Positions 63,441 through 63,781 of a stretch of 64,000 bases of DNA are shown here, in pieces. This DNA comes from Escherichia coli (lineage in GTDB: Bacteria; Pseudomonadota; Gammaproteobacteria; Enterobacterales; Enterobacteriaceae): NCBI RefSeq assembly GCF_044324785.1, contig NZ_CP172127.1, one strand, 5' to 3'. Every line of letters begins with the position of its first letter. Positions within the stretch are counted from its first letter, which is position 1. Below the pieces are notes generated by a model. It was not told where the DNA came from, made no database searches, and was given only the letters and a program-made list of their open reading frames with translations. The position numbers were made by a program, and so were the translations under genes.

Positions 63441-63781
63441 ATATTCCACCAGCTATTTGTTAGTGAATAAAAGGTTGCCTGTAAAATTACAAAAACCTTA
63501 CGCAGCGTCAAGCGGAATCGTGTCAATCATTGCGACAAATCAATCCTGTGCCTAAGCATTACGCGACTGACTCGCCTCACTCTTCCTTTGGGCTTGAGAC
63601 CACATGGGGTCGGCGTCCCGAATTTTAAAGGGCAATTACGATAAAAATGTGATTTTCATCACGATTTAGGTGCAGCCATTTCGTCGAGATCAAGTTTAGG
63701 ACAAATTTTTGCCAGTTGGTGTTAATGTTTTGTTAGAATCAGTCGCGTAATGTGAGCACGATTAAAGTGAGATGTGAGCAA

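What the first reader, a model, noticed from the sequence alone, without database searches (positions are those of the whole stretch)
63441..63781. 340-bp gapA-msrB divergent region
This is a long divergent control region between a highly expressed glycolytic gene and a methionine sulfoxide reductase gene. gapA is known to use multiple promoters, and the AT-rich segment 63640-63730 could host them. I cannot assign individual promoters by eye.
Basis: inference. Interest (0 to 1): 0.2.

Follow-up and report, generated by a model that had tools for sequence, protein, structure and literature searches.

The report
Known gapA–msrB divergent promoter region
This is the well-studied E. coli control region between the glycolysis gene gapA and the protein-repair gene msrB; its four gapA promoters, the msrB promoter and their regulator sites are already mapped, so the finding is correct but ordinary.

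Summary
63441-63781 is exactly the 341-bp spacer between gapA (minus strand, ATG at 63440) and msrB (plus strand, ATG at 63782). It is present in 5425 of 5426 complete E. coli genomes and differs from K-12 at 3 bases.

Published start sites transfer base for base:
- gapA P1: start 63476, -35 TTGACG, TGn, -10 AATTTT.
- gapA P2: start 63593/4, sigma-32 type CTTTAAA-N14-CCCCATGT.
- gapA P3: start 63614, with a CRP box centred at -41.5.
- gapA P4: start 63685.
- msrB promoter: start 63747, TGtTAGAAT, overlapped by a published ArcA box; the 35-nt leader carries RyhB pairing sites.

Its placement is only partly right. The AT-rich 63640-63730 stretch holds P4, the CRP box and the upstream part of the msrB promoter. 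The dominant P1, P2 and the P3 core lie outside it.

Comparison with about 40 Enterobacterales species shows the spacer length (median 341 bp) and each mapped element are conserved. The P1 core is conserved as far as Vibrio.

One conserved block (63563-63581) has no assigned function. It could pair with 63532-63546 in the long leaders, but the support is weak.

Novelty: already known.

The parts
62445..63440 (-). gapA coding sequence (glyceraldehyde-3-phosphate dehydrogenase A), 331 codons plus stop
   Evidence: ORF list. RefSeq annotation of the identical record and of K-12.
63441..63476 (-). 36-nt 5' UTR of the P1 transcript; P1 start site is the A at 63476
   Evidence: Start 36 nt from the ATG by 5'RACE and earlier primer extension (Olvera 2009). 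The sequence is identical to K-12. It is invariant in 18 Enterobacteriaceae and nearly so across the order.
63483..63511 (-). gapA P1 core promoter: -35 TTGACG (63511-63506), T-rich 17-bp spacer, TG extension (63491-63490), non-canonical -10 AATTTT (63488-63483)
   Evidence: Described as a -35/TGn promoter with -10 AATTTT (review citing Thouvenot 2004). Spacer -18 effect. It is the only match to the combined pattern in the 64-kb window. TGTAATTTTAC is invariant from E. coli to Vibrio, Aliivibrio and Grimontia.
63461..63493 (.). Weak ArcA ChIP region with three predicted direct repeats over the P1 -10, start site and 5' UTR
   Evidence: Park 2013 supplement gives 1860742-1860774 (U00096.2), which maps to w63493-63461. 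gapA expression was essentially unchanged, and the authors note the binding may belong to msrB.
63512..63545 (-). Invariant block directly upstream of the P1 -35 (GATTGATTTGTCGCAATGATTGACACGATTCCGC). It contains an FNR-like motif, TTGATTTGTCGCAA (63543-63530), centred 60.5 bp upstream of the P1 start
   Evidence: 100% conserved in 18 Enterobacteriaceae. ATTGACACGATTCCGCTTGACG is invariant across the order. The FNR-like motif is retained as TTGACTTTAAACAA in Vibrio. The FNR ChIP-seq summit at 1,860,717 (U00096.2) maps to w63518. The motif alone is not significant. Which protein or proteins bind here is inferred.
63563..63581 (-). Block conserved in Enterobacteriaceae only (AGTGAGGCGAGTCAGTCGC), with no assigned function. 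Most of it forms the possible 5' arm (63580-63566) of a leader hairpin whose 3' arm would be 63546-63532
   Evidence: Conservation. RNAalifold consensus helix. On that 13-pair helix (63580-63566 with 63546-63532), 95% of cells are paired in 39 variants; 8 of 13 pairs change on one side only and stay paired; there are no two-sided changes. The fold-energy z-score is only -0.8 to -1.6.
63602..63630 (-). gapA P2, sigma-32 (heat-shock) promoter: CTTTAAA (63630-63624), N14, CCCCATGT (63609-63602); start at 63593 or 63594
   Evidence: Published P2 sequence and -153 start. TSS-seq start with a 154-nt UTR. It is the only window match to the sigma-32 pattern within 2 mismatches, and has 1 mismatch. CTTTAAAAT and CCCCAT are conserved.
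63614..63627 (-). gapA P3 core: -10 TAAAAT (63627-63622), overlapping the P2 -35; start is the G at 63614
   Evidence: Published P3 sequence, -174 start, Crp-regulated. TSS-seq start with a 174-nt UTR, 31 reads.
63648..63663 (+). CRP box TGTGATTTTCATCACG, centred at 63655.5, which is -41.5 relative to the P3 start (class II geometry)
   Evidence: Pattern match with 1 mismatch. TGTGA-N6-TCACA is conserved across almost all Enterobacterales compared; Budvicia is the exception. CRP regulation of gapA/P3. The spacing is computed from the sequence.
63685..63698 (-). gapA P4: -10 TAAACT (63698-63693), start is the G at 63685; it lies back-to-back with the msrB promoter, with starts 62 bp apart
   Evidence: Published P4 sequence and -245 start; the window has one SNP (63706) in its spacer. 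TTTTGTTCTAAACTT is conserved in Enterobacteriaceae. No independent TSS-seq support was found.
63719..63739 (+). ArcA box GTGTTAATGTTTTGTTAGAAT (two TGTTA repeats 11 bp apart) at -28..-8 of msrB. It overlaps the msrB extended -10 TGtTAGAAT (63731-63739)
   Evidence: Park 2013 supplement gives this exact 21-mer at 1860496-1860516, -28 to -8, with msrB repressed 11.6-fold. It is the only exact TGTTA-N6-TGTTA in the window. TAACA-N6-TAACA on the gapA strand is conserved across the order.
63747..63781 (+). msrB 35-nt 5' UTR; start is the G at 63747. RyhB pairing site I is 63747-63758 (GTAATGTGAGCA). Site II includes 63778-63780 and overlaps the ribosome binding site
   Evidence: Bos 2013: G1, 35-nt UTR, site I G1-A12, mutated positions G6/U7/G8 and G32/C33/A34 all match the window sequence. 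TSS-seq 1860488, UTR 35, 48 reads.
63782..64000 (+). Start of the msrB coding sequence (it runs off the window end)
   Evidence: Translation [12 protein letters not shown]...; RefSeq annotation.

Best explanation
This is the E. coli msrB-gapA divergent regulatory region, a dense and already characterised array of promoters and regulator sites.

gapA is read from four promoters stacked over about 250 bp:
- P1 (start 63476) is the strong housekeeping sigma-70 promoter. Its poor -10 (AATTTT) is compensated by a TG extension, a good -35 and a T-tract spacer.
- P2 (start 63593/4) is a sigma-32 heat-shock promoter.
- P3 (start 63614) has a weak -35 and is activated by CRP bound at -41.5.
- P4 (start 63685) is a weak distal promoter.

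Together they keep GAPDH high under many conditions. Cra represses the gene, and an FNR ChIP peak lies just upstream of P1.

msrB is read the other way from an extended -10 promoter (start 63747). ArcA occludes this promoter under anaerobiosis. The 35-nt msrB leader is bound by the iron-responsive sRNA RyhB, which blocks translation.

Shown: the sequences, the coordinates, and the published start sites and ChIP sites mapped onto the window. Inferred: that this strain behaves like K-12, the exact proteins bound to the invariant block 63512-63545, and the position of the Cra site.
For: - Locus identity: 5425/5426 E. coli genomes hold the spacer. RefSeq annotation gives gapA and msrB on either side. 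The window is collinear with K-12 apart from 3 SNPs.
- gapA promoters: the four published promoter sequences and their distances to the ATG (-36, -153, -174, -245) match the window base for base.
- P1 anatomy.
- Genome-wide TSS mapping recovers the msrB start and gapA P3 and P2. 5'RACE recovers P1.
- Other elements: the sigma-32 motif is unique in the window; the CRP box sits at exactly -41.5 of P3; the ArcA box is the same 21-mer as published; the FNR ChIP summit is at w63518; Cra/CRP antagonism at gapA is published; the RyhB sites and the 35-nt UTR are published.
- Phylogenetic footprint: every one of these elements is a conserved block, separated by variable DNA, in 18 Enterobacteriaceae and largely across about 40 Enterobacterales. 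The spacer length is 336-346 bp in 32 of 40 species.
Against: - P4 rests on the original primer-extension work only. I found no independent TSS-seq support.
- P1, the major promoter, is absent from the one TSS-seq table I could read, although 5'RACE confirms it.
- In glucose-grown cells only P1 was detected, so P2-P4 are conditional and minor.
- A generic sigma-70 consensus scan finds none of the five mapped promoters.
- The FNR-like motif is no better than chance on its own.
- I could not locate a Cra site by consensus.
- The primary papers (Charpentier & Branlant 1994; Thouvenot 2004) were not readable here, so their content is cited second-hand.
- The window strain carries minority alleles at 63745, 63706 and 63616, and their effect is untested.
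Confidence: 0.93

Rival explanations
1. In practice this is a single-promoter region. Only P1 matters for gapA. The upstream conserved blocks (CRP box, CTTTAAAAT/CCCCAT, TAAACT) exist to regulate msrB or to act as upstream activating sites for P1, rather than as separate gapA promoters.
For: Only P1 was detected by 5'RACE in glucose-grown strains. P4 lacks independent TSS support. The FNR and ArcA ChIP signals in the spacer were assigned by their authors to msrB.
Against: TSS-seq finds capped 5' ends at exactly the published P3 and P2 positions. The sigma-32 -10 CCCCAT and the -41.5 CRP geometry point towards gapA and are conserved. The CRP box lies 91 bp upstream of the msrB start, on no standard activation register that I checked.
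Confidence: 0.05
2. In addition to the known promoters, the long gapA leaders made from P2-P4 carry a conserved RNA hairpin (63580-63566 pairing with 63546-63532). It would affect leader stability or processing, or read-through across the P1 region.
For: The 5' arm is an Enterobacteriaceae-conserved block with no assigned function, flanking a variable 19-nt loop. RNAalifold predicts the helix. In 39 distinct variants 95% of cells pair, and 8 of 13 pairs change on one side only while staying paired (GU<->AU, CG<->UG). Slid-register controls give 23-44%.
Against: There are no two-sided compensatory changes: the 3' arm is invariant, was fixed by my search pattern, and is also explained as protein-binding DNA. 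One-sided purine or pyrimidine transitions are the commonest mutations anyway. The fold energy is not unusual (z -0.8 to -1.6). The block and helix are absent outside Enterobacteriaceae. There is no Rfam match.
Confidence: 0.1
3. The spacer hides an unannotated small gene (a small ORF or an sRNA).
For: Mechanical ORFs of 32 and 53 codons overlap the spacer on the plus strand. A GTG-initiated 17-codon frame follows an AGGAAG at 63586-63581, read by eye.
Against: K-12 RefSeq annotates nothing here. There is no Rfam hit above chance: twister-P1 scores 16.6 bits against a gathering score of 67.2, E = 1.3. Conservation falls in promoter-sized blocks, not codon periodicity, and single-base indels break the GTG frame in several genera.
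Confidence: 0.02

Closest known systems
E. coli K-12 gapA multi-promoter region (P1-P4; Charpentier & Branlant 1994; Thouvenot et al. 2004, as summarised in PMC2759082 and PMC2613000)
   Same: It is the same locus, the same 341-bp length, and the same four promoter sequences and start-site distances. The P1 architecture is identical (TTGACG, 17 bp, TGtAATTTT).
   Different: There are three SNPs relative to K-12: 63745 (-2 of the msrB start), 63706 (P4 spacer) and 63616 (P2 spacer, -2 of P3). All three are minority alleles among E. coli-like sequences sampled.
E. coli msrB promoter and leader (ArcA-repressed, Park et al. 2013; RyhB-repressed, Bos et al. 2013)
   Same: The ArcA box 21-mer, the extended -10, the G start site, the 35-nt UTR and RyhB site I are all identical.
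   Different: The base at -2 of the start differs (G here, A in K-12). Nothing else differs.
epd(gapB)-pgk-fbaA promoter region of E. coli
   Same: It is another glycolytic operon with several promoters, activated by CRP and repressed by Cra in the same antagonistic logic.
   Different: It is a different locus with a different sequence. No sigma-32 promoter and no divergent stress-repair gene were reported in what I read.
-35/TGn promoters such as phage T4 Pminor
   Same: P1 belongs to this class: a poor -10 rescued by both TGn and a -35.
   Different: P1 is a chromosomal housekeeping promoter. Its odd -10 is conserved across two bacterial orders.

Membership tests
E. coli gapA multi-promoter region | Orthologous position: immediately upstream of gapA and divergent from msrB | tested here: met
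   same flanking genes, 341 bp, 3 SNPs against K-12.
E. coli gapA multi-promoter region | P1: TTGACG, 17-bp T-rich spacer, TGn, AATTTT; start at the A 36 nt before the ATG | tested here: met
   The sequence is identical to the published P1. Promoter activity in this strain is not testable here.
E. coli gapA multi-promoter region | P2: sigma-32-type promoter with a start about 153 nt before the ATG | tested here: met
   CTTTAAA-N14-CCCCATGT at 63630-63602. TSS-seq gives a 154-nt UTR. Sigma-32 dependence itself was not testable.
E. coli gapA multi-promoter region | P3: CRP-dependent promoter with a start 174 nt before the ATG | tested here: met
   Published sequence. TSS-seq gives a 174-nt UTR. 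The CRP box is centred at -41.5.
E. coli gapA multi-promoter region | P4: start 245 nt before the ATG | tested here: inconclusive
   The published sequence is present with one SNP. There is no independent TSS support in the dataset I could read.
ArcA-repressed msrB promoter | ArcA box (two TGTTA repeats with 11-bp spacing) overlapping the core promoter at -28..-8 | tested here: met
   The exact 21-mer of Park 2013 lies at 63719-63739.
RyhB-regulated msrB leader | 35-nt 5' UTR starting at a G, with pairing site I (G1-A12) and site II at the ribosome binding site | tested here: met
   63747-63781; the site I sequence and all mutated positions match. The TSS is confirmed. RyhB pairing was not recomputed.
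   There is only one 3-mismatch hit in the spacer. Window-wide hits number 46, below the chance expectation of 61.
Any Rfam RNA family | Covariance-model score at or above the gathering threshold | tested here: not met
   The best hit is twister-P1 at 16.6 bits against a threshold of 67.2, E = 1.3.
Cra (FruR) operator at gapA | Match to the palindromic Cra consensus within the spacer | tested here: inconclusive
   Cra binding and repression are published. No site within 3 mismatches of GCTGAATCGATTCAGC lies in the spacer. A weaker candidate, GCGGAATCGTGTCAATC at 63512-63528, was found by eye only.

The most novel reading that the evidence does not exclude
The Enterobacteriaceae-conserved block 63563-63581 has no assigned function. 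Most of it (63580-63566) could pair with the invariant 63546-63532 to form a stem-loop in the long gapA leaders made from P2-P4. That would give the heat-shock and catabolite-controlled transcripts a post-transcriptional property that the P1 transcript lacks. Alternatively, the block could be the site of an unidentified DNA-binding protein about 90-105 bp upstream of P1.
Probability: 0.12. Interest if true: 0.35.

Novelty: already known. Interest (0 to 1): 0.08.

Why it matters
As a finding it adds nothing new. The promoters, start sites and ArcA, FNR, CRP, Cra and RyhB inputs of this spacer are in the literature, and the gapA promoter is already used as a strong constitutive expression tool.

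The modest value here is a base-exact map in window coordinates and a comparative footprint. The footprint shows that the whole 341-bp architecture is held nearly constant in length across Enterobacterales. It also shows that the deliberately suboptimal P1 core (TGTAATTTTAC) is conserved as far as Vibrionaceae. This fits the idea that the odd -10 is functionally tuned rather than accidental.

Tried and rejected
- Generic sigma-70 and terminator scan. It gave one promoter-like hit, at chance level, on the wrong strand across the gapA start codon. None of the five mapped promoters was found, because they are non-canonical.
- Rfam scan at E <= 10. Only a chance-level twister-P1 hit.
- Sigma-E consensus. 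Nothing.
- Cra consensus. No hit in the spacer.
- FNR consensus. Hits are too common to be informative on their own.
- Inverted repeat I1 (63557-63573 / 63736-63752, 16 of 17). It looked far beyond chance. However, the second arm is not conserved outside E. coli, K-12 and most E. coli have 15 of 17, and the improving allele is rare. I rejected it as functional.
- Inverted repeat I2 (63699-63710 / 63815-63826, 12 of 12). It is 11 of 12 in K-12, and one arm is msrB coding sequence. I treated it as chance.
- Upstream ORF in the long leader. The frame is broken by indels in several genera.
- Reading the primary papers (PMC1134079, PMC205121, PMC3021228) and the Thomason 2015 TSS set. They were not held.
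- Cappable-seq supplement. It had none of the coordinates I searched for.

Full report
**What is there**

The last 1.6 kb of the window reads yeaD <- gapA <- | -> msrB. The gapA CDS is 62445..63440 on the minus strand. msrB starts at 63782 on the plus strand and runs off the window end.

A megablast of the spacer finds it once in 5425 of 5426 complete E. coli genomes, at >=95% identity in all but one. RefSeq annotates gapA and msrB on either side, and nothing between them, both in an identical record and in K-12 MG1655. The window is collinear with K-12 and differs at three positions: 63745, 63706 and 63616. K-12 coordinates therefore convert as U00096.3 = 1,926,211 - w and U00096.2 = 1,924,235 - w.

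A second AT-rich stretch abuts gapA (63441-63520, GC 0.388). The middle of the spacer (63521-63639) is at the window average, 0.496.

**The gapA promoters**

Olvera et al. 2009 (PMC2759082, Table 1, citing Charpentier & Branlant 1994 and Thouvenot et al. 2004) list four gapA promoters, each with a 39-nt sequence ending at its start site and a distance to the ATG. The distances are P1 -36, P2 -153, P3 -174 (Crp-regulated) and P4 -245. All four sequences are found in the window at the implied places:

- P1: start at the A, 63476.
- P2: start at the G, 63593.
- P3: start at the G, 63614.
- P4: start at the G, 63685.

P1 is described as a -35/TGn promoter whose non-canonical -10 (AATTTT) needs both the TG extension and the -35; a T at -18 in the spacer also matters. 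In the window this reads TTGACG (63511-63506), a 17-bp spacer, TG (63491-63490) and AATTTT (63488-63483). It is the only match to that combined pattern in 64 kb.

P2 reads CTTTAAA-N14-CCCCATGT (63630-63602). This is the only window match within two mismatches of the sigma-32 pattern, and it has one mismatch.

P3 uses TAAAAT (63627-63622), which overlaps the P2 -35, and has no good -35 of its own. The CRP box TGTGATTTTCATCACG (63648-63663) is centred at 63655.5, exactly 41.5 bp upstream of the P3 start. That is the classical class II position; the spacing is computed from the sequence and the class assignment comes from established knowledge.

P4 uses TAAACT (63698-63693).

Independent genome-wide TSS mapping (Kim et al. 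2012 supplement) lists gapA starts with 174-nt and 154-nt leaders, which correspond to P3 and P2. P1 is missing from that table. However, 5'RACE and a pyrosequencing TSS survey confirm P1. P4 has no independent support that I could find.

Cra represses gapA and overrides CRP activation (Kim et al. 2018). CRP binding at gapA is also seen by genomic SELEX.

**The msrB side**

Bos et al. 2013 (PMC3650055) give a G start site and a 35-nt 5' UTR. They describe RyhB pairing site I at G1-A12 and site II around G32-A34, at the ribosome binding site. That places the start at 63747 and site I at 63747-63758 (GTAATGTGAGCA). All the mutated positions they name match the window sequence. TSS-seq gives the same start: 1860488, 35-nt UTR.

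The promoter is an extended -10, TGtTAGAAT (63731-63739), with no conserved -35.

While reading the interspecies alignment I noticed that the invariant block TGTTAATGTTTTGTTA consists of two TGTTA repeats 11 bp apart, which is the ArcA signature. Park et al. 2013 had already reported exactly this 21-mer (GTGTTAATGTTTTGTTAGAAT, 1860496-1860516, which maps to w63739-63719) as the ArcA box at -28..-8 of msrB, with 11.6-fold ArcA repression. It is the only exact TGTTA-N6-TGTTA in the window. They also report a weaker ArcA peak over P1 and its 5' UTR (w63461-63493), without an effect on gapA.

Myers et al. 2013 place an FNR ChIP-seq summit at 1,860,717, which maps to w63518, and assign it to msrB repression.

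The placement was only partly right. The AT-rich 63640-63730 stretch contains P4, the CRP box that drives P3, and the upstream part of the msrB promoter and ArcA box. The dominant P1, the sigma-32 P2 and the P3 core lie outside it. No sigma-E-like promoter is present. The generic sigma-70 scan finds none of the five real promoters.

**Comparative footprint**

A degenerate pattern for the gapA N-terminus retrieved 120 genome loci. msrB is divergent from gapA in all Enterobacterales and most Vibrionaceae among them.

After refining the msrB starts, the spacer is 336-346 bp in 32 of 40 Enterobacterales species, with a median of 341. Alignment of 18 Enterobacteriaceae and of 20 species across the order shows conserved blocks separated by variable DNA. 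Each block is a mapped element:

- the msrB extended -10 and ArcA box;
- TTTTGTTCTAAACTT (the P4 -10);
- the CRP box;
- CTTTAAAAT (P2 -35 and P3 -10);
- CCCCAT (P2 -10);
- a roughly 105-bp stretch from 63545 to the gapA ATG that is essentially invariant in Enterobacteriaceae.

That last stretch covers the P1 core, its 5' UTR and 34 bp upstream of the -35. ATTGACACGATTCCGCTTGACG is invariant across the whole order.

Extending the comparison to Vibrionaceae, the P1 core TTG-N..-TGTAATTTTAC and an upstream TTGAC-TTTA-AACAA motif remain. That motif corresponds to E. coli TTGATTTGTCGCAA (63543-63530), centred at -60.5 from P1. It resembles an FNR site and lies 18 bp from the FNR ChIP summit. However, two-mismatch FNR motifs occur about once per kb, so the assignment is an inference.

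**Leads that did not hold up or stay open**

A 17-nt inverted repeat (63557-63573 / 63736-63752, 16 of 17) is statistically striking. But its second arm is not conserved outside E. coli, and the allele that makes it 16 of 17 is rare (3 of 51 E. coli-like sequences). I regard it as fortuitous.

One block, AGTGAGGCGAGTCAGTCGC (63581-63563), is conserved in Enterobacteriaceae only and has no assigned function. RNAalifold pairs most of it (63580-63566) with the invariant 63546-63532, across a variable 19-nt loop.

I collected more variants from metagenomes. In 39 distinct sequences, 95% of cells pair, and 8 of 13 pairs change on one side only while remaining paired. Slid-register controls give 23-44%.

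Several points weigh against this helix:

- There are no two-sided compensatory changes, and none could appear, because the 3' arm is invariant and was fixed by my search pattern.
- The fold energy is unremarkable (z -0.8 to -1.6).
- The block is absent outside the family.

I keep this as a low-probability hypothesis: either a leader hairpin in P2-P4 transcripts, or an unidentified protein site about 90-105 bp upstream of P1.

**Conclusion**

The finding is accurate and the region is real and functionally dense, but it is already explained in the literature down to single bases. Novelty: already known. Interest is low.

Noticed in passing
window 63441-63781, and loci L005-L122: The msrB<->gapA divergent pair and the spacer length are strongly conserved: 336-346 bp in 32 of 40 Enterobacterales species, median 341. 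The same gene arrangement, with roughly 310-360 bp spacers, is seen in most of the Vibrionaceae loci retrieved.
   Followed up: yes
window 63483-63493, and Vibrio loci such as L005, L010 and L025: The non-canonical P1 core TGTAATTTTAC (TGn plus AATTTT) is invariant from E. coli to Vibrio, Aliivibrio and Grimontia. A 'poor' -10 hexamer has been kept across two orders.
   Followed up: partly
window 63563-63581 (with 63532-63546): An Enterobacteriaceae-specific conserved block with no assigned function. It can pair with the invariant block upstream of P1 (13 bp, 4 G-U pairs). One-sided changes keep the pairing, but there is no true covariation.
   Followed up: partly
window 63557-63573 and 63736-63752: A 17-nt inverted repeat, 16 of 17 complementary, linking the region upstream of P1 with the msrB start site. 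It is 15 of 17 in K-12 and most E. coli, and it is not conserved in other genera.
   Followed up: yes
window 63699-63710 and 63815-63826: A perfect 12-nt inverted repeat (GGACAAATTTTT / AAAAATTTGTCC) between the P4 spacer and msrB codons 12-15. It is 11 of 12 in K-12 and is probably chance.
   Followed up: partly
window 63745, 63706, 63616: The three differences from K-12 are all minority alleles among E. coli-like sequences sampled. They fall at -2 of the msrB start, in the P4 spacer, and at -2 of P3 (also the P2 spacer).
   Followed up: partly
window ~62936 (inside gapA): Kim 2012 TSS-seq lists a strong start (583 reads) at 1861299 (U00096.2), inside the gapA coding sequence, and assigns it to yeaD with a 575-nt leader. 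This suggests an internal promoter for yeaD.
   Followed up: no
window 63418-63445 (+): A promoter-like TTGATA-16-TATATT (10 of 12) on the plus strand straddles the gapA start codon, antisense to gapA. It is the only hit of the consensus scan and is at chance frequency.
   Followed up: no
window ~63203 (inside gapA): Shimada 2017 genomic SELEX lists a weak minor-sigma peak (in the flagellar-sigma section of the paper) at 1861032, between msrB and yeaD, that is, within gapA. The genome version of that coordinate was not checked.
   Followed up: no
window 61477-62382 (-): The mechanical ORF for yeaD is 301 codons, but RefSeq annotates 294 codons (885 nt). The start codon choice differs.
   Followed up: no
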